A stretch of 59,895 nt of DNA from IMG/VR virus record IMGVR_UViG_3300045988_040622. One strand, 5' to 3'. The translations under genes were made by a program, and so were the position numbers. The notes beneath the pieces were generated by a model. That model was given only the letters and a program-made list of their open reading frames with translations. It was not told where the DNA came from and did not search any database. The stretch comes from a virus. Shown piece by piece: positions 224-5,640 of this stretch (its first letter is position 1; the number at the start of each line of letters is the position of its first letter).

Positions 224-979
224 ATGAAACTTATCTCATGGAACGTTAACGGGCTGCGCGCCTGCGTACAAAAAGGATTTCTCGATTATTTTCATGCCGC
301 AGATGCCGATTTTTTCTGCATCCAGGAATCCAAGCTGCAGGAAGGACAGATCGCACTTGATCTGCCGGGCTACCACCAATACTGGAATTATGCCGAGAAA
401 AAAGGCTACTCCGGCACGGCAATCTTTGCAAAACACGAACCTCTTCAGGTCACACGCGGCATCGGCACCGCAATCTGCGATACCGAAGGCCGGGTGATCA
501 CCCTCGAATATGACAGCTTCTACCTTGTCACCTGTTACACCCCAAACTCCCAGAACGAACTGGCGCGGCTTCCCTACCGCATGGAATGGGAAGATGCTTT
601 CCGCGCTTATCTTCTTCAGCTCGACAGCAAAAAGCCGGTCATTCTCTGCGGCGATTTAAATGTTGCACACACGGAGATCGATCTGAAAAATCCAAAGACC
701 AACCGCAAAAATGCCGGTTTTTCCGATGAAGAACGAGAAAAAATGACCGAACTTTTAAGCGCCGGTTTTACGGATACCTTCCGTTATTTTTATCCGGATG
801 CCGAGGGCATTTATTCCTGGTGGTCCTACCGCTTTAAAGCCCGCGAGAAAAACGCCGGATGGCGGATCGATTATTTCATCACTTCCAGGCGGCTCGATTC
901 CAGTCTCACCGGAGCAGCTATCCATACCGATGTGTTCGGTTCGGATCACTGTCCGGTGGAACTGACCATTGAATTGTAA
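224..979 (+). CDS. xth: Exodeoxyribonuclease III (ExoIII/APE1 EEP-family AP endonuclease)
   Basis: 251-aa ORF with MKLISWNVNGLRA at the N-terminus, internal LCGDLNVAH and C-terminal GSDHCPV motifs typical of ExoIII. RBS is AGGAGG. GC is visibly higher than in the prophage. A terminator follows. Confidence 0.9.
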   Translation: MKLISWNVNGLRACVQKGFLDYFHAADADFFCIQESKLQEGQIALDLPGYHQYWNYAEKKGYSGTAIFAKHEPLQVTRGIGTAICDTEGRVITLEYDSFYLVTCYTPNSQNELARLPYRMEWEDAFRAYLLQLDSKKPVILCGDLNVAHTEIDLKNPKTNRKNAGFSDEEREKMTELLSAGFTDTFRYFYPDAEGIYSWWSYRFKAREKNAGWRIDYFITSRRLDSSLTGAAIHTDVFGSDHCPVELTIEL

Positions 980-1001
980 AGAAGTTTATTTCGTAAAAAA
1001 T

Positions 1002-1044
1002 CCAGTGTTTTCACGGACGATTCCATGAAAACACTGGATTTTTC
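1002..1044 (+). terminator. Rho-independent terminator of xth
   Basis: 12-bp stem CCAGTGTTTTCA / TGAAAACACTGG followed by ATTTTTC. Confidence 0.75.
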
Positions 1045-1208
1045 ATTATGTGTACATCAATTTTCCTTTTGGCACTGGAATTTCCCGCCCAATAGCCTTT
1101 GCCGTCTCTATCCATTCGGAAATAACTGTTTCCACATTTTCCAAAGCCTCTGCCGCCGTTTCTCCATCATAAACTTTATTTCCGCGAGGATGCGCAGCTC
1201 GCGGAGCG

Positions 1209-1247
1209 TTATTTAATCATAGGAAGGAATTTCCTATGATTAAATAA
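1209..1247. repeat. Perfect 16-bp-arm palindrome on the host side of attL
   Basis: TTATTTAATCATAGGA (1209-1224) and TCCTATGATTAAATAA (1232-1247) are exact reverse complements. An A-run follows. Confidence 0.6.
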
Positions 1248-1277
1248 AAAAAATGCTGTCATACGACAACATTTTTT
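1246..1277. terminator. Putative bidirectional terminator
   Basis: Hairpin ATGCTGTC-ATAC-GACAACAT (one mismatch) with an A-run upstream and TTTTT downstream. Confidence 0.45.
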
Positions 1278-1305
1278 CGGGTTGGGCTATTATATTTATA
1301 ATAGT

Positions 1306-1330
1306 AACAGTCCGTACGGGAATCGAACCC
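1306..1330. repeat. attL core (copy of the tRNA-Glu 3' end)
   Basis: AACAGTCCGTACGGGAATCGAACCC is identical to 59809-59833. The sequences diverge immediately on both sides. Confidence 0.85.
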
Positions 1331-1380
1331 TAAAGTAATTGCCTTGAAATGGCTTAAAATAGCCATTCTTTCAATTTTTC

Positions 1381-1400
1381 TTTGAGTACCTTTGAGTACT
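1381..1400 (+). promoter_or_regulatory. Putative integrase arm-type binding sites (2 tandem copies)
   Basis: TTTGAGTACC then TTTGAGTACT, 50 bp from the attL core. The same 9-10-mer occurs twice at 59741-59762 near attR. Confidence 0.55.
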
Positions 1401-1406
1401 AGGGAC

Positions 1407-2603
1407 TCATAGTGCTTCGATTAAGTCAAGTTCCTGTCTCTTTTCCTCAATTCCGGTACGATCAAAATAATAATGATCTTTTGTGCAACTAATGTCTGTA
1501 TGCCCCATGGTATCAAGGATTGTGGACTCTTTCACTTTTCCGTCGAGCAAGATACTTCCATACGTCTTACGGATTTTGTGCGGAGATTTCACTTTCATTC
1601 GCAGTTCATGTTCGCAGATATACCGCAAACGTTCACGAAAGTTGTAGGATTTCAGCCGTTCTCCGTCTCTTTCAAATAGATACTCCCCAAAGGGATTTCT
1701 CTTTCGTACTTCATCAAGAATCCATTTGTACTTATCCGGCAGTATGGCAAATCGCAATCCGGCTTCTGATTTCGGGAAATCTTTGACCTCATAGTGAAAA
1801 CCATCATCATCACGATAACGTGTTTCTGTAGAATTGATTGCAACCGTGTAGTTTTCAACATCTTTCCGCTTTAATGCCGACAATTCTCCGACACGTACCC
1901 CTGTCTTAAACATGAATAGCAATCCAAGGTTTACGATATCCAAGTGATTCCTCAAGTACATCTCCATGCGTTCCTTTTCATCCGGCATATATACTTGGTC
2001 TTTTGCCTGCCGGACTACGTGCTTAAACGCTTTTGGCGATATATCCATATCTTTTAGCGTGTATGTAATGGGAAACTTAACATACTTCTTCCGCTTGGCA
2101 TACTTAAAGATTCCATATATTAGCGTCCGGAAGTTTGAGAATGCCTTGGAAGTCATGTTGAAGTCATGGATGCTATTTCGTATGAACGTTTCAAGGTCGC
2201 ATTCGTCTACACTTTTGATTCTCTTATCCTTGATACCGTCAAAGTATCTTTGAAAATCCATTAAGTATCTGTCGTAGGTTGCCCTGCTGATTTCTTCAAG
2301 TTCCAACTTTTGCGAAATCCAGCGGTTGAAGATTTCCTCTACTGTAGGGTCATCCTCTCTCTCTTTCCAATAATCAATGATTTTCTGCTCGACCGCTTCT
2401 CTGCGCTTTGCCTTGATTTTACGTCTGCCTTTTACTTCATCCGGCAGATATGAGTACCAGTTCTCATCCTTTCCTTGATAGATTTTATAAGGGTTTTTGT
2501 TGAGTAATTTTTCTCTCTTTTGCATAGTGACTTGTTTCTGCACAAGTGCTATGTCTAGTATGCCACTATCAACGGCATATTTCAACAGTTCTTTTTCATC
2601 CAA
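1407..2603 (-). CDS. int: Tyrosine-type site-specific integrase
   Basis: 398 aa. The C-terminal catalytic region carries GVRVGELSALKRKDV, HKIRKTYGS and LGHTDISCTKDHYY (R..HxxR..Y pattern). The gene is adjacent to attL. Confidence 0.9.
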   Translation of the reverse strand: MDEKELLKYAVDSGILDIALVQKQVTMQKREKLLNKNPYKIYQGKDENWYSYLPDEVKGRRKIKAKRREAVEQKIIDYWKEREDDPTVEEIFNRWISQKLELEEISRATYDRYLMDFQRYFDGIKDKRIKSVDECDLETFIRNSIHDFNMTSKAFSNFRTLIYGIFKYAKRKKYVKFPITYTLKDMDISPKAFKHVVRQAKDQVYMPDEKERMEMYLRNHLDIVNLGLLFMFKTGVRVGELSALKRKDVENYTVAINSTETRYRDDDGFHYEVKDFPKSEAGLRFAILPDKYKWILDEVRKRNPFGEYLFERDGERLKSYNFRERLRYICEHELRMKVKSPHKIRKTYGSILLDGKVKESTILDTMGHTDISCTKDHYYFDRTGIEEKRQELDLIEAL

Positions 2604-2809
2604 TCAAATACCCCCGTTCTTTCTATTTTATCTTTTATATCTCTCACTCTGTACTCTATCGTTCTTAGTGATAGATTTTCTTTTGTGGATATTTGCTTTT
2701 GTGAAAAACCACGGCAGAGAAGAGAGAAAATTCTCTCCTCTTCTTCCGTGAAATTGGCATTTTCTTTGATTTGTTCAAGTTCTGGCTTAATGAATTTTGT
2801 AAATTTCAT
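2582..2809 (-). CDS. Small LuxR/GerE-type HTH protein (possible excision or regulatory factor)
   Basis: 75 aa. ERIFSLLCRGFSQKQISTKENLSLRTIEYRVRDIKDKI matches the LuxR-type HTH pattern. It lies directly upstream of int and overlaps it. Confidence 0.55.
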   Translation of the reverse strand: MKFTKFIKPELEQIKENANFTEEEERIFSLLCRGFSQKQISTKENLSLRTIEYRVRDIKDKIERTGVFDWMKKNC

Positions 2810-2827: not shown

Positions 2828-3814
2828 TTATTGGTTGATATTTAAGTTTTTAAACATAGCACACATAACATCTACTACTATTGAGTTGCCGAACTGCTTA
2901 TATAGTTGCGTATTGCTGTTCACTGCTGCCATTTTGTCAATATCTTCATCAGATACACCCATCAGCCGTCCGCACTCTCTCGGTGTTAGCTTTCTGATAC
3001 GATATTTTGTAGCAATATGGCTATTTGCATATCCGTGTGTGCCAGCTACAAGATTAGCAGATATGCCGTTATCAGAAACAACTGTACCGCATTGGGATCC
3101 ATTACTTGATATTTGACCGACCTTTTCAATTCTAACAACTTCTTGGTTTTGCGCGGTTAATGTAGGGCAAGTATTGCCTTTGTCTTGCACCCTACCTCTT
3201 CTTGTTTTGCTGTTAGGATAGCTTGCTTCAAAGCAACCGCCTATTTCGCATTCAATAGAGCCGTCCTTTGTGGCTTGTCTAATTTTTACGTTTTCAAGCA
3301 CCAAATTGTCTTTCTGCACACTCGTTAAGCAATTACTTGTACCTTGCATATTTACCTCTAATCTCTGTCCTGTCGGGCTTCCCGCAGTTCTATCTGACGG
3401 ATTATCGGGATTTCTGCCACGCATAGCAACTATCTGACTTTCGGTACATATTTTAATCTGTTGTGTACTGCCACCCTCAACTGTTGTGATGTTAGGACAA
3501 AGTGCATTTTCATCATATACTGTGTTTGATTGGTGCTTACCTGTGCCATTATCCATAAATCCCAACTGTTTTACTTCAAGTATTTTAGGCTCTTGATTTC
3601 CACCTTGCATTGCACTCAATGTTGGACTACCCCCCCCTACATCATAAATTCTGTTGGTACTCTCAAATTTTGCTTCAAGAGAACCTATTGCATTTACATC
3701 TGCCATAATTACTCCTAAATCGTGGTTTTCAGCCTTTACGCATCTTGCAATCGGATATACACCTCTTTGAAAATCTGCTGTCACTCCGGTGTATATGCTA
3801 CCTATTACTTCCAT
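2828..3814 (-). CDS. DNA (cytosine-5) methyltransferase, C-terminal part (several TRD-like modules plus motifs IX-X)
   Basis: TRD-like modules GGSPTLSAMQGG, AMRGRNPDNPSDR...NCLTSVQKDN and CPTLTAQNQ, then RKLTPRECGRLMGV (motif IX) and QFGNSIVVDV (motif X). It has its own GGAG-7nt-ATG start. Confidence 0.8.
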   Translation of the reverse strand: MEVIGSIYTGVTADFQRGVYPIARCVKAENHDLGVIMADVNAIGSLEAKFESTNRIYDVGGGSPTLSAMQGGNQEPKILEVKQLGFMDNGTGKHQSNTVYDENALCPNITTVEGGSTQQIKICTESQIVAMRGRNPDNPSDRTAGSPTGQRLEVNMQGTSNCLTSVQKDNLVLENVKIRQATKDGSIECEIGGCFEASYPNSKTRRGRVQDKGNTCPTLTAQNQEVVRIEKVGQISSNGSQCGTVVSDNGISANLVAGTHGYANSHIATKYRIRKLTPRECGRLMGVSDEDIDKMAAVNSNTQLYKQFGNSIVVDVMCAMFKNLNINQ

Positions 3815-3895
3815 TCAATCACTCCATTCATAGATTGATTTCCAAAACCTTTATAATCCCTTGCCATAAGAGTCGTTGCAATATCAATCTGCTTT

Positions 3896-4846
3896 TCAAT
3901 CTGAGTTGCTTGATTGCTTAACAACAAGGTTTCCGTCTGACCGCAAGTTTGATATTCCGCAGTCATATTTTGCCTTGATACAGTTTGCGACTTCTCTTTG
4001 CTGCGGTTTATTGATTGTTCCGTCAACGCAAGTCTGTCTGTCTGTCTGTATGTCAAGATTGTGTTGTGGTAATGTGCCGTTGTCAATAAGCTGTTTTATA
4101 AGCTTGTCAGCCTTTTCATTGTTGATGTAATACTTTTCATCTACATTATCCTCAAGATAGTCTTTCAACTTCTTTTCAAGTGGTACAGGCTGCGGAAAAT
4201 CATATGAGTAATTGCCAAGGAACGAAAACATAAAGCATCTGTTTCTGTTCTGTGCCACTCCATAATTTTCAGCATTCAAATCTTGCCAATAATTTGTGTA
4301 CCCTAAACTTTCCAGGAAACCCAACCACTTCTCAAAATCATTGATGTTTTTCTTGCCGTGTACTTGTGGCACGTTCTCCATGAACAAAATCTGTGGTAAT
4401 TCTCCGTTACTATCTCTAATTTCTGTTAGTATTCTCTCAACTTCCCACAACAGACCGCTTCTTGTACCACTTCCCTTAGACATTCCAGCTTGTTTCCCGG
4501 CAACTGATAAATCTGTGCAAGGAAACGAGTAAGTAAGTAGGTAAGTAAAGGTTTCTGTGCTGCAAATATTCAAATCTTCTGCATGAACCTTTGTTATGTC
4601 CATTGTGGGGAAATCCGTACCATGTACTGCGTTATAGCTTGCAATAGCGTACTTATCAAACTCAACAACTCTGTAATGTTCAAACTTAGCGCCTATTCTC
4701 TTTAGTGCCATTGCCTGACTGCCGTAGCCGGCGAAAAGTTCTATTAAGCGAATGGGCTTTGTTATGCTGATTGGTTCTCTTGTGAAGTCAAATATGCTCA
4801 TTTGATTATCACAAGAATAATTTTCAAAATTCATAAAATCTACCAA
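3896..4846 (-). CDS. DNA (cytosine-5) methyltransferase, N-terminal part (motifs I-VIII plus first TRD-like module)
   Basis: LFAGYGS (motif I), FSFPCTDLSVAG (motif IV), ENVPQV (motif VI), QNRNRCFMFS (motif VIII), then ANCIKAKYDCGISN. It ends at a stop 84 nt before the next MTase ORF, which is in the same frame. Confidence 0.8.
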   Translation of the reverse strand: MVDFMNFENYSCDNQMSIFDFTREPISITKPIRLIELFAGYGSQAMALKRIGAKFEHYRVVEFDKYAIASYNAVHGTDFPTMDITKVHAEDLNICSTETFTYLLTYSFPCTDLSVAGKQAGMSKGSGTRSGLLWEVERILTEIRDSNGELPQILFMENVPQVHGKKNINDFEKWLGFLESLGYTNYWQDLNAENYGVAQNRNRCFMFSFLGNYSYDFPQPVPLEKKLKDYLEDNVDEKYYINNEKADKLIKQLIDNGTLPQHNLDIQTDRQTCVDGTINKPQQREVANCIKAKYDCGISNLRSDGNLVVKQSSNSD

Positions 4847-4896: not shown

Positions 4897-5640
4897 TTAA
4901 TTTAAACTTAAATAACACATAATTCCACAATCCGGCATAATCTCTGTATTCATATCTCCTCTGTTCGGGTCTAATTCATCCAGATATACCGGACCGTTTT
5001 TGTCTTTCAACATGGAGTGTCCGACTTCTCTTTCCAACTTCGCCCGACTTTCAAAGACTTCCGGAAAATCCTTTCTGATATGGTTCCAATAACCCATGCC
5101 ACCTTTTATACAGCCAATGCAATTATTGTTGGAATACCCATGCTCATAATTCCAAGGACGTGGAAAAGTAAAAGTCATTAAAAACAGTCCATGCACTTCC
5201 TCTTTCGTTAAATTTCTTTCAATCAACGGAAAAATGTGATTAAACTCCGGATTGCTCTCAACCATTCGATCAGCTCGGTTCTTCTCGTTCAAGTCAAATC
5301 CCCAAACATACGTGATCTCACAGTCCGCATGTTCAGCTTCCCACTTTTTACGAATCCGCTTTTTCATCCAATTAGTACATGGTGCAAATCCGTTAGCCGG
5401 ATTTTTATAACCACCAAACGTCCTTACGCAATCTTCTACATTTCGATATTCCGTTGATCGTAGCACTGTGATTTTCTTTCCGATCGCTTTCTCGCAATCT
5501 TTAATGAATCTCATGCTATCCGGATGTTGGTCTGCAACGTCAATGTAGATCCATTCATCTACATTTCCGGCAAGATATCCTGCCATAAAACTTGATATTC
5601 CTGCGCTTATCCAACATACCTTTAGTTTCTTTTTTGCCAT
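4897..5640 (-). CDS. PAPS-reductase / PP-loop ATP-pyrophosphatase-like protein
   Basis: 247 aa. N-terminal VCWISAGISS is PP-loop-like, and a Cys cluster NNCIGCIKGG follows. This is typical of the phage PAPS reductase family. Confidence 0.55.
   Translation of the reverse strand: MAKKKLKVCWISAGISSFMAGYLAGNVDEWIYIDVADQHPDSMRFIKDCEKAIGKKITVLRSTEYRNVEDCVRTFGGYKNPANGFAPCTNWMKKRIRKKWEAEHADCEITYVWGFDLNEKNRADRMVESNPEFNHIFPLIERNLTKEEVHGLFLMTFTFPRPWNYEHGYSNNNCIGCIKGGMGYWNHIRKDFPEVFESRAKLEREVGHSMLKDKNGPVYLDELDPNRGDMNTEIMPDCGIMCYLSLN

What the first reader, a model, noticed from the sequence alone, without database searches (positions are those of the whole stretch)
2828..4846. C5 cytosine methyltransferase split in its variable region, with one recognition module stranded out of frame
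Motifs I-VIII and one TRD-like module (ANCIKAKYDCGISN) are in ORF 3896-4846. Three or more further TRD-like modules plus motifs IX-X are in ORF 2828-3814.

Both ORFs are in the same reading frame, separated by 84 nt containing four stops.

A classic TRD-like peptide, IATTLMARDYKGFGNQSMNGVIE, is encoded in that gap, but in the +1 frame. Reading it would need a +1 shift and then a -1 shift.

The downstream ORF has its own GGAG-7nt-ATG.

Two readings are possible. The enzyme may be a two-subunit MTase split between motifs VIII and IX, as in M.AquI, that has silenced one specificity module. Alternatively it may be a multispecific phage MTase caught in decay or module shuffling.

The adjacent PAPS-reductase-like gene may belong to the same DNA-modification module.
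Basis: partly seen in the sequence, partly recalled or inferred. Interest (0 to 1): 0.65.

Follow-up and report, generated by a model that had tools for sequence, protein, structure and literature searches.

The report
Repeat-switched split phage cytosine methyltransferase
A prophage of a gut Lachnospiraceae bacterium encodes a cytosine DNA methyltransferase as two genes, and slippery short repeats set the reading frame, so the "broken" look is most likely a random switch of which DNA-recognition module is made rather than gene decay.

Summary
ORF 3896-4846(-) holds motifs I-VIII plus one recognition module (TRD1). ORF 2828-3814(-) holds six modules plus motifs IX-X. They share a frame and are separated by four stops. 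TRD2 lies in the +1 frame.

The split is not an assembly error: identical ORFs occur in at least 11-23 independent metagenome contigs.

These carry the only indels among 16 near-identical prophage copies.

In 59 related viral contigs the same junction carries (GACA)n or (AGAAC)n tracts of 11-67 nt. All three frames are about equally used: TRD1 then stop, linker plus TRD2 then stop, or an immediate stop. In 49 of 57 loci the downstream ORF starts at an ATG overlapping the TRD2 stop.

The N-domain, TRD1, TRD2 and the downstream ORF each show purifying selection in their own frame, so decay is unlikely.

Best reading: a two-subunit (M.AquI-like) multispecific phage C5 methyltransferase that is a multi-repeat contingency locus. 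The repeat chooses TRD1, TRD2 or neither. Methylation output is untested.

The PAPS-reductase-like neighbour is not co-conserved (6 of 49 loci).

The parts
3896..4846 (-). ORF A, the N-subunit as read in this window (316 aa). It holds C5-MTase motifs I-VIII, the repeat-encoded IQTDRQT, then TRD1 and a stop (TGA 3896-3898).
   Evidence: PF00145 profile positions 2-215, E 3e-46. Motif coordinates. The exact protein occurs on at least 17-23 independent contigs. N-domain pN/pS is 0.13 at pS 0.56 across 45 distinct relatives.
4032..4049 (-). Simple repeat 1: (CAGA)4 at 4033-4048, within the period-4 tract 4032-4049. It lies between the catalytic domain and the recognition modules and sets the downstream reading frame.
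   Evidence: TRF finds it. It is the only tetranucleotide repeat of at least 4 units in the window, with 0.0 expected from shuffles. L008 has (CAGA)5 in an otherwise identical 2.2 kb; L009 (1 mismatch) has a 4-nt gain and the same 275-aa ORF A, but the repeat regex did not confirm where the gain lies. L061 (97.8% identical over 854 aligned nt) has 3 units. Relatives carry 11-67 nt tracts of (GACA)n or (AGAAC)n at the same place.
3920..3994 (-). TRD1 core, EVANCIKAKYDCGISNLRSDGNLVV, in frame a. It is in frame with the N-domain when the CAGA count is 1 modulo 3, as here.
   Evidence: pN/pS is 0.32 in this frame against 0.84 and 1.25 in the other two frames, across 32 distinct relatives. A stop follows within about 10 codons in nearly all relatives.
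3889..4035 (-). Frame-b linker. This is the +1 reading of the TRD1 DNA (RLALTEQ...QIEKQ), free of stops, and it joins the repeat to TRD2 when the CAGA count is 0 modulo 3.
   Evidence: The same frame is read in intact relatives: P0029 reads through all of it; P0001, P0015 and P0009 keep only its AE[FY]QTCGQTETLLL-like part. pN/pS is 0.84, so it is a passenger reading and not a conserved peptide.
3808..3888 (-). TRD2, IDIATTLMARDYKGFGNQSMNGVIEWK, in frame b. Its stop is TAA at 3805-3807.
   Evidence: pN/pS is 0.17-0.49 in frame b against 0.70-0.91 in the other frames. The homologous module is in frame in intact enzymes P0001, P0009, P0010, P0011 and P0015.
3805..3825 (-). Conserved junction GGAGTGATTGA-ATG-GAAGTAA. 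It combines a Shine-Dalgarno-like GGAG (3822-3825), the ORF B start ATG (3812-3814) and the TRD2-frame stop TAA (3805-3807). The stop and start overlap.
   Evidence: An ATG overlapping the TRD2-frame stop is present in 49 of 57 related loci, with three different downstream sequences: MEVIGS.., MEKLTD.. and MEILGS...
2828..3814 (-). ORF B, the C-subunit (328 aa). It holds six TRD-like modules: TRD3 3704-3763, TRD4 3575-3652, TRD5 3449-3523, TRD6 3293-3346, TRD7 3125-3190 and TRD8 3014-3082. It also holds motif IX (2957-2995) and motif X (2873-2896).
   Evidence: PF00145 profile positions 239-322. It matches PDB C5-MTase motifs IX-X. The modules are present or absent independently in intact relatives. 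The exact protein occurs on at least 6-11 contigs. Codons 1-37 from the ATG have pN/pS 0.16. Against L014, ORF B shows 15.75 synonymous and 3.25 non-synonymous differences.
3630..3637 (-). Simple repeat 2: G8 on the coding strand, encoding the GGG of YDVGGGSPTL just before the TRD4 core. G8 keeps ORF B intact. G7 or G9 truncate it to 65 or 62 aa.
   Evidence: It is the only G/C run of at least 8 nt in the window. G9 occurs in L010, L011, L015, L018 and L019, which are otherwise 99-100% identical. The exact 62-aa (G9) and 65-aa (G7) products are in public data on 10 and 2 contigs.
4528..4548 (-). Imperfect (TTAC)5-like tract, TTACTTACCTACTTACTTAC, encoding TYLLTYS just before catalytic motif IV. 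It is interrupted and in frame here. It may be a third, weaker repeat switch.
   Evidence: TRF finds it. Three relatives (L042, L055, L059) have one extra perfect unit (+4 nt), which frameshifts the N-domain. It does not vary among the 16 near-identical copies.

Best explanation
The locus is a working, repeat-controlled contingency locus. It encodes a two-subunit, multi-module (multispecific-type) C5 cytosine DNA methyltransferase of a temperate phage integrated in a Roseburia-like Lachnospiraceae genome.

The N-subunit gene ends in a slippage-prone (CAGA)n tract. Three different reading frames follow it.
- Frame a gives TRD1 then a stop. This is the state of this window (n=4, 316 aa).
- Frame b reads the TRD1 DNA out of frame as a linker, then TRD2, then a stop that overlaps the start codon of the next gene (n=3 or 6, 345 or 349 aa).
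- Frame c stops at once (n=2 or 5, 271 or 275 aa).

The C-subunit gene (ORF B) starts at its own ATG. It supplies six further modules and motifs IX-X. A G8 run toggles it between intact and truncated.

Shown: the repeats vary, repeat length alone sets the frame, the architecture is conserved, and every coding part is under purifying selection in its own frame.

Inferred:
- The two polypeptides assemble as in M.AquI.
- Repeat slippage therefore changes which sequences are methylated: a constant set from the C-subunit, plus TRD1, TRD2 or neither.
- Poly-G slippage turns the enzyme on or off.
- The phage population thereby hedges its bets against the restriction systems of diverse hosts, including methylation-dependent ones.
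For: The split is real.
- ORF A and ORF B occur exactly on at least 23 and at least 11 independent contigs.
- The 2.2-kb region is 99-100% identical in 16 loci.

The only indels among those copies fall in the two repeats, on backgrounds with no substitutions.
- (CAGA)4 versus 5: L008 has 0 mismatches and a 4-nt gap.
- G8 versus G9: L011 has 0 mismatches and a 1-nt gap.

Both repeats are unique in the 59.9-kb window.

Survey of 59 IMG/VR contigs carrying TRD1:
- The same junction holds (GACA)n with tracts of 11-67 nt (22 distinct lengths), or a different non-triplet unit, (AGAAC)n.
- Frame states are a 14, b 20, c 19.
- Within groups of equal non-repeat length, the state is fully determined by tract length mod 3.
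- TRD1 is followed by a stop, and the +1 frame is open through to TRD2 and then stops.
- An ATG overlaps that stop in 49 of 57 loci.

Frame-specific selection (pN/pS):
- TRD1: 0.32 in frame a against 0.84 and 1.25.
- TRD2: 0.17-0.49 in frame b against 0.70-0.91.
- N-domain: 0.13; C-terminal 100 codons: 0.32.
- First 26-37 codons of the C-ORF from the overlapped ATG: 0.10-0.16.
- ORF B, window versus L014: 15.75 synonymous and 3.25 non-synonymous differences.

Other support:
- The exact 275-aa, 62-aa and 65-aa alternative products exist in public data.
- The eight modules are present or absent independently in intact relatives.
- The conceptual fusion aligns to multispecific M.H2I and M.rho11sI over 95% of its length.
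- Split C5-MTases with the break in the variable region are active. This holds for M.AquI and for fragment complementation of M.BspRI, M.BsuRI, M.HhaI and M.SssI (PMC3404938).
Against: - There are no methylation, protein or switching-rate data. Assembly of the two polypeptides, and the activity of a TRD sitting at the C-terminus of the N-subunit, are inferred.
- The tract here is short (4 units). Among the 13 distinct samples behind the 16 near-identical loci, 2 differ from it.
- The exact state-b product of this lineage is not in the public protein collection. State b is seen only in a copy 97.8% identical over 854 aligned nt (L061).
- State b inserts a 49-aa non-conserved out-of-frame linker.
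- In relatives with the MEKLTD-type C-ORF, only 4 of 17 listed loci stay in frame past that ORF's poly-G run, and 2 reach motif IX. This is fewer than the one-third expected, so part of the family may be degenerating or may work differently.
- The Shine-Dalgarno-like GGAG is also part of the conserved NGVIE codons, so its conservation is not independent evidence.
- The pN/pS values are simple pooled Nei-Gojobori proportions on recombining, non-independent sequences. The survey was conditioned on an exact 26-nt TRD1 match.
Confidence: 0.6

Rival explanations
1. It is a simple on/off phase variation of an enzyme that works only as a single chain. The repeats are real switches. However, only fused relatives such as P0029, L071 and P0015 make active enzyme. 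The split architecture in this window is a locked-off or weakly active derivative, kept intact by recombination with active copies.
For: Intact single-chain relatives of 376-600 aa are abundant. L024 (P0029) has the repeat, and frame b runs through to motif X. L071 fuses TRD1 in frame. No single repeat change in this window restores one long ORF.
Against: The split junction is the majority form among TRD1-bearing loci, at 49 of 57, and has diversified downstream sequences. The C-ORF is under strong purifying selection from its own ATG in split loci. So are TRD1 and TRD2, each in its own frame. Natural and engineered split C5-MTases are active (PMC3404938).
Confidence: 0.2
2. It is a decaying pseudogene. 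A multispecific phage methyltransferase has been inactivated by frameshifts, and repeat-length variation is neutral slippage in dead DNA.
For: Two frame changes separate the conserved motifs. Several relatives carry extra frameshifts at poly-G runs or at the (TTAC)n tract.
Against: pS reaches 0.56 in the N-domain with pN/pS of 0.13. ORF B shows 15.75 synonymous against 3.25 non-synonymous differences between two split lineages. The frame contrasts in TRD1, TRD2 and the C-ORF start all favour the proposed coding frames. There are no stops within the 316-aa and 328-aa ORFs. Frameshifts occur only at simple repeats and not at random positions. Two different non-triplet repeat units occupy the same junction.
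Confidence: 0.07
3. One full-length protein is made by programmed ribosomal frameshifting: +1 after TRD1 and -1 at the EWK/ATG junction.
For: The frame order (0, +1, 0) would in principle allow it, and the junction sequence is conserved.
Against: I see no slippery heptamer at either site in the sequence. The 131-nt junction RNA folds no better than shuffles, z = +0.67. The stop-start overlap with an ATG is the classic arrangement for coupled translation of two proteins. The frame upstream is set by repeat length, which varies freely.
Confidence: 0.03
4. The two frame changes are sequencing or assembly errors.
For: None was found. One of the repeats is a homopolymer, and homopolymers are error-prone.
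Against: The identical arrangement appears in at least 11-23 independently assembled contigs from different studies. Neither frame change between ORF A, TRD2 and ORF B lies in a homopolymer.
Confidence: 0.01

Closest known systems
M.AquI, a two-subunit C5 methyltransferase; more loosely, M.EcoHK31I
   Same: There are two adjacent ORFs. The larger has motifs I-VIII plus the proximal part of the variable region. The smaller has the distal variable region plus motifs IX-X (PMC3404938). This is the layout of ORF A and ORF B.
   Different: M.AquI has a single specificity and no repeat switch. Here the N-subunit can end in either of two alternative modules or none. The C-subunit carries six modules. 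The split junction is a stop-start overlap reached only from one of three frames.
Multispecific Bacillus phage C5 methyltransferases: M.SPRI, M.phi3TI, M.rho11sI, M.H2I and M.phiBssHII
   Same: All are encoded by temperate phages. Several short recognition modules sit in tandem between motifs VIII and IX, and they are gained and lost independently. The conceptual fusion aligns to M.H2I and M.rho11sI over 95% of its length at about 27% identity. The references are listed in PMC8936443.
   Different: Those enzymes are single polypeptides with a fixed set of specificities. To my knowledge none has been described with internal non-triplet repeats, modules placed in different reading frames, or a split.
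Phase-variable methyltransferases controlled by simple repeats: Type III mod phasevarions, Type I hsdS, and the Type IIG cj0031
   Same: A non-triplet repeat lies inside the coding region, and its length varies between otherwise identical strains and shifts the frame. Examples are tetranucleotide repeats in Haemophilus mod and poly-G in C. jejuni cj0031 (PMC11868660; PMC4889913).
   Different: Those are chromosomal adenine methyltransferases of R-M systems in pathogens, and the repeat gives on/off switching. From my own knowledge, a truncated HsdS is the other known outcome. Here the enzyme is a phage-borne orphan C5 enzyme. Two of the three frames each lead to a different, selected recognition module. 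Additional repeats sit in the partner subunit.
Hypermutable poly-G tracts in Campylobacter phage genes
   Same: The phage itself, not the host, carries repeat-based contingency loci that create phenotypic diversity. The source is Sorensen et al. 2021, as cited in PMC12823448.
   Different: Those tracts are in receptor-binding or structural genes, not in a DNA-modification enzyme.

Membership tests
C5 cytosine DNA methyltransferase (Pfam PF00145) | Conserved motifs I, IV (PC), VI (ENV) and VIII (QxRxR) in the N-terminal part | tested here: met
   ORF A matches PF00145 at profile positions 2-215, E 3e-46. The motifs were located at LFAGYGS, SFPCTDLS, MENVP and QNRNRCF.
C5 cytosine DNA methyltransferase (Pfam PF00145) | Motifs IX and X downstream of a variable region | tested here: met
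   ORF B matches PF00145 at positions 239-322, E 1e-10. It aligns to motifs IX-X of solved C5-MTases 3lx6, 3me5 and M.HhaI.
C5 cytosine DNA methyltransferase (Pfam PF00145) | All ten motifs on one polypeptide (the usual monomeric form) | tested here: not met
   Four stops and two frame changes separate motif VIII from motif IX. The same arrangement appears in many independent contigs.
Two-subunit C5 methyltransferase (M.AquI type) | Two adjacent co-oriented ORFs, one with I-VIII plus proximal variable region and one with distal variable region plus IX-X | tested here: met
   No terminator-like site lies on the coding strand between the ORFs. The start of the second ORF is conserved.
Two-subunit C5 methyltransferase (M.AquI type) | Both polypeptides are made, and both are required and sufficient for activity | not testable with these tools
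   Support is indirect only: purifying selection on both ORFs, and on the first codons of ORF B from its own ATG.
Multispecific phage C5 methyltransferase (SPR, phi3T, rho11s, H2 type) | Several tandem recognition modules between motifs VIII and IX that are individually dispensable | tested here: met
   Eight modules were recognised. They are independently present or absent in 13 intact relatives.
Multispecific phage C5 methyltransferase (SPR, phi3T, rho11s, H2 type) | Each module confers a distinct target sequence | not testable with these tools
   This needs methylome or restriction-protection data.
Multispecific phage C5 methyltransferase (SPR, phi3T, rho11s, H2 type) | Sequence relatedness to the characterised enzymes | tested here: inconclusive
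   tblastn of the conceptual fusion covers 95% of the query in M.H2I and M.rho11sI, but at only about 27% identity (E 2e-21 and 3e-22). Much of that is the shared catalytic core.
Phase-variable gene controlled by a simple repeat (contingency locus) | A repeat with a non-triplet unit inside the reading frame | tested here: met
   (CAGA)4 at 4033-4048 and G8 at 3630-3637. Relatives carry (GACA)n or (AGAAC)n at the same junction.
Phase-variable gene controlled by a simple repeat (contingency locus) | Repeat number differs between otherwise (near-)identical genomes and alone changes the frame | tested here: met
   L008 differs from the window by one CAGA unit only, and L011 by one G only. The frame state is fully predicted by tract length mod 3 within groups of equal flank length.
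Phase-variable gene controlled by a simple repeat (contingency locus) | High-frequency, reversible switching within a clonal population, with a phenotypic consequence | not testable with these tools
   This needs read-level or amplicon data from a clonal lysogen, and methylomes.

The most novel reading that the evidence does not exclude
A temperate gut phage uses slipped-strand mispairing to choose between alternative DNA-recognition modules. The modules are laid out in different reading frames behind one catalytic domain, on a naturally split multispecific C5 methyltransferase. Further poly-G switches sit in the partner subunit. A single prophage genotype would therefore generate a combinatorial set of methylation specificities: at least 3 x 2 states here. 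That would be a phage-encoded 'specificity phasevarion' for hedging against both methylation-sensitive and methylation-dependent host restriction.
Probability: 0.45. Interest if true: 0.85.

Novelty: new variant of a known kind. Interest (0 to 1): 0.78.

Why it matters
Phase-variable methyltransferases are known mainly as on/off adenine methyltransferases of R-M systems in pathogens. Multispecific phage C5 enzymes are known as fixed single chains.

This locus, and at least 59 related gut-virome contigs, combine both ideas in a new way. The repeat does not just switch the gene off. It selects which of two selected recognition modules ends the N-subunit of a split enzyme.

If confirmed, three things follow.
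- It would be a compact natural system for stochastic switching of 5mC specificity in abundant gut Lachnospiraceae prophages.
- It would explain why such genes are routinely annotated as truncated or frameshifted methyltransferases.
- It would give a directly testable model for how phages hedge against diverse restriction systems.

It is also a warning for annotation pipelines, which would discard these genes as pseudogenes.

Tried and rejected
- Assembly error was rejected by exact recurrence.
- Megablast of the region against GenBank phages found only one partial 78.6% hit, in the PAPS-reductase-like gene.
- An exact TRD1 pattern scan of GTDB species-representative genomes found nothing. No named isolate host was obtained that way. 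The host was inferred only from the flanking xth gene, which is 84% identical at protein level to Roseburia sp. MAGs.
- Pfam gave no hit for the PAPS-reductase-like protein, but PHROGs did. The idea that it forms a module with the methyltransferase was rejected because only 6 of 49 related loci carry a homologue.
- Programmed frameshifting is not supported. The junction RNA has no notable structure, z = +0.67.
- Promoter-like sites are no more frequent than in shuffles, and no coding-strand terminator lies between the ORFs.
- The exact predicted state-b products (345 and 349 aa), and the n=2 and n=7 products of this lineage, are absent from the protein collection.
- A first attempt to compare the first 50 codons of the C-ORFs without alignment was meaningless because of indels. 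It was redone on equal-length subsets.
- Two regex attempts to size the second poly-G run failed before worked. One search then crashed on an eighteenth locus.
- The openness of the +1 frame across TRD1 is not in itself unusual. Other +1 stretches of 46 codons are also open in ORF B. I do not use it as evidence.
- Literature searches found no description of a repeat-switched or split multispecific phage C5 methyltransferase. The library does not cover most subscription journals.
- No structure prediction was run. A single-chain model cannot test subunit assembly.
Full report
**Observation**

The finding is accurate as a description. All genes here are on the minus strand.

- ORF A (3896-4846, 316 aa) matches the C5 methyltransferase family PF00145 over profile positions 2-215 (E 3e-46). 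It contains motifs I, IV, VI and VIII.
- ORF B (2828-3814, 328 aa) matches profile positions 239-322. It aligns to motifs IX-X of solved C5 methyltransferases.
- Both ORFs are in the same frame. The 84 nt between them, counting ORF A's stop, contain four stops.
- The peptide IDIATTLMARDYKGFGNQSMNGVIEWK is encoded at 3808-3888 in the +1 frame.
- GGAG lies 7 nt before the ATG of ORF B.
- ORF B holds six recognition-module-like segments. With TRD1 in ORF A and TRD2 in the +1 frame, that makes eight.

**Not an error**

ORF A is encoded exactly on at least 23 contigs, and ORF B on at least 11. These come from independent human-gut metagenome assemblies.

Sixteen fetched loci are 99-100% identical to the window over the 2.2-kb region.

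Among those 16 copies, the only indels are in two simple repeats.

- L008 has no substitution but five CAGA units instead of four. L009 (one mismatch) also has a 4-nt gain, though the repeat regex did not confirm its position. In both, ORF A is cut to 275 aa.
- L010, L011, L015, L018 and L019 have G9 instead of G8. This splits ORF B into 62 and 263 aa. L011 is otherwise identical to the window.

In the window, (CAGA)4 lies at 4033-4048, directly between the catalytic domain and TRD1. The G8 run lies at 3630-3637, just before the core of TRD4.

These are the only tetranucleotide repeat of at least 4 units and the only G/C run of at least 8 nt in the whole 59.9-kb window. Shuffles expect 0.0 and 0.45.

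**Relatives**

A search with the conceptual fusion finds thousands of intact single-chain relatives of 376-600 aa, which carry different subsets of the same modules.

Reading their DNA in three frames was decisive.
- In L024 (protein P0029) an (ACAGA)9 pentanucleotide repeat sits at the same junction.
- TRD1 is encoded there out of frame and is followed by a stop.
- The called protein reads through the TRD1 DNA in the +1 frame and continues into the next module.
- P0001, P0015 and P0009 have lost the repeat and most of TRD1. They read the TRD1 tail in the +1 frame as AEFQTCGQTETLLL.

So 'TRD1 in one frame, the next module in the +1 frame' is an ancestral layout. It is not an accident of this window.

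**Survey**

An exact 26-nt TRD1 pattern retrieved 59 IMG/VR viral contigs. Where they align, they are 77-97% identical to the window.

- Nearly all carry a non-triplet repeat at the junction. It is (GACA)n with tracts of 11-67 nt and 22 distinct lengths, or (AGAAC)n.
- The N-domain is in frame with TRD1 in 14 loci (state a), with the linker and TRD2 in 20 (state b), and with the third frame in 19 (state c). The third frame stops at once.
- Within groups that have the same non-repeat length, the state is fully determined by tract length mod 3.
- TRD1 is followed by a stop. The +1 frame stays open to TRD2, which occurs in several sequence variants, and then stops, mostly as EWK(N/Y)*.
- In 49 of 57 loci an ATG inside GAATGGAA overlaps that stop. 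It opens the C-terminal ORF, whose downstream sequence comes in at least three types: MEVIGS.., MEKLTD.. and MEILGS...
- Further poly-G runs of 5-9 nt precede other module cores and shift the frame in many loci.
- A (TTAC)n tract before motif IV carries one extra unit, and a frameshift, in three loci.

**Selection**

I used the other two frames of the same DNA as internal controls.

| Region | pN/pS in proposed frame | pN/pS in other frames |
|---|---|---|
| TRD1 | 0.32 | 0.84, 1.25 |
| TRD2 | 0.17-0.49 | 0.70-0.91 |
| N-domain | 0.13 (pS 0.56) | 1.48 |
| Last 100 codons of the C-ORF | 0.32 | not computed |
| First 26-37 codons of the C-ORF from the overlapped ATG | 0.10-0.16 | 0.65 or higher |

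Between the window and L014, ORF B has 15.75 synonymous and 3.25 non-synonymous differences.

These are simple pooled Nei-Gojobori proportions on recombining sequences. Even so, the frame contrasts are consistent. The locus is not a pseudogene. TRD1 and TRD2 are both maintained as coding sequence, although in any one genome at most one of them is in frame.

**Proposed mechanism**

The steps marked 'inferred' have not been shown.

Slippage at (CAGA)n cycles the N-subunit through three products.
- n = 4 or 7: N-domain plus TRD1 (316 or 320 aa). This is the state of this window.
- n = 3 or 6: N-domain, a 49-aa out-of-frame linker, then TRD2 (345 or 349 aa). Its stop overlaps the ORF B start.
- n = 2 or 5: N-domain only (271 or 275 aa).

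ORF B is translated from its own ATG. It supplies TRD3-8 and motifs IX-X. G8 keeps it intact, while G7 or G9 truncate it to 65 or 62 aa. Both truncated products exist in public data.

Inferred:
- The two polypeptides associate as in M.AquI. This is plausible because natural and engineered C5 methyltransferases split in the variable region are active (PMC3404938).
- The repeat therefore changes which sequences are methylated.
- The phage population gains by hedging between protection from ordinary restriction enzymes and avoidance of methylation-dependent ones.

**Rivals**

- On/off switching only, with the split form inactive. This cannot be excluded without experiments. It is disfavoured by the prevalence of the split junction and by the selection on it.
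- Decay. This is contradicted by the selection data and by frameshifts occurring only at repeats.
- Programmed ribosomal frameshifting. There is no support: I see no slippery heptamer, and the junction RNA folds no better than shuffles, z = +0.67.
- Assembly error. This is excluded.

**Comparison with known systems**

- The layout equals M.AquI: I-VIII plus the proximal variable region, then the distal variable region plus IX-X.
- The modular variable region equals the multispecific Bacillus phage enzymes. The references are listed in PMC8936443. The fusion aligns to M.H2I and M.rho11sI over 95% of its length at about 27% identity.
- The repeat control equals phase-variable Type I, III and IIG methyltransferases (PMC11868660; PMC4889913).
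- Phage-borne hypermutable tracts are known in Campylobacter phages (cited in PMC12823448).

I found no description of the combination: alternative recognition modules placed in different frames behind a non-triplet repeat, on a split phage C5 enzyme. I therefore rate it a new variant of a known kind.

**Context**

- The locus lies at the integrase end of a prophage. The integrase is at 1407-2603.
- Next to it is a host xth gene whose protein is 84% identical to those of Roseburia sp. MAGs.
- The upstream PAPS-reductase-like gene (4897-5640) belongs to phrog_424 (E 1e-35). A homologue is present in only 6 of 49 related loci, so there is no evidence that it belongs to a common modification module.

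**Limits**

- There are no methylation, protein or read-level data.
- The tract in this lineage is short.
- The survey is conditioned on the presence of TRD1.
- Part of the family, the MEKLTD-type C-ORFs, is mostly out of frame at its first poly-G run. I cannot explain this.

Noticed in passing
window 4528-4548 (minus strand): An imperfect (TTAC)5-like tract encodes TYLLTYS just before catalytic motif IV. In relatives L042, L055 and L059 a perfect tract has one extra unit, which frameshifts the N-domain. This may be a third, weaker repeat switch.
   Followed up: partly
window 4897-5640 (minus strand): A PAPS-reductase-like gene lies directly upstream of the methyltransferase. It matches phrog_424 (E 1e-35) but has no Pfam hit. 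A homologue is present in only 6 of 49 related loci, so it is not a conserved partner. A 78.6%-identical copy is the only GenBank-phage DNA hit for the region (MT835516.1).
   Followed up: yes
window 2582-2809 (minus strand): A 75-aa GerE/LuxR-type (sigma region 4-like) ORF lies between the methyltransferase and the integrase. It overlaps the integrase start by 22 nt and is conserved in all near-identical prophage copies.
   Followed up: no
window 224-2603: This is one prophage end. A tyrosine integrase (1407-2603, minus) abuts a host exodeoxyribonuclease III gene (224-979, plus). In L004 the next host genes are rimP and nusA. The best xth matches are Roseburia sp. MAGs at 84% amino-acid identity, so the host is a Lachnospiraceae not represented at species level in GTDB representatives.
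   Followed up: partly
L002 3150-3480 (Streptococcus phage Javan179); L003 3130-3420 (Dulem virus 40): Other phages also carry C5 methyltransferases annotated as two CDS. In Javan179 the first ORF ends right after a TRD1-like module (..NAVIGRYDAGIRNQQSVGGAVIELIE*). No tetranucleotide repeat is seen there, only poly-A runs. Split phage C5 enzymes may be more common than appreciated.
   Followed up: partly
L028-L078, MEKLTD-type C-ORFs, about 80 nt after their ATG: A second poly-G run (6-9 G, TTAGGGGGGGG(T)ATTTG) precedes the ICPTLRANK module. Only 4 of 17 listed loci stay in frame with the ATG past this run, and 2 reach motif IX. This is fewer than the one-third expected for a freely switching tract, and it is unexplained.
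   Followed up: partly
Protein clusters: The 90%-identity cluster of ORF A has 324 members of 275-323 aa. The short N-terminal fragments of ORF B (59-72 aa) form clusters of 132 and 55 members, and some members are seen on 30-54 contigs. Public databases therefore hold many of these repeat-truncated products, labelled as hypothetical proteins or as truncated methyltransferases.
   Followed up: no
L020 and L023 (P0015, P0001), L025 (P0009): These are intact single-chain relatives that have lost the junction repeat and most of TRD1. They keep the out-of-frame TRD1 tail as an in-frame linker (AEFQTCGQTETLLL). They look like 'locked' derivatives of the switchable form.
   Followed up: partly
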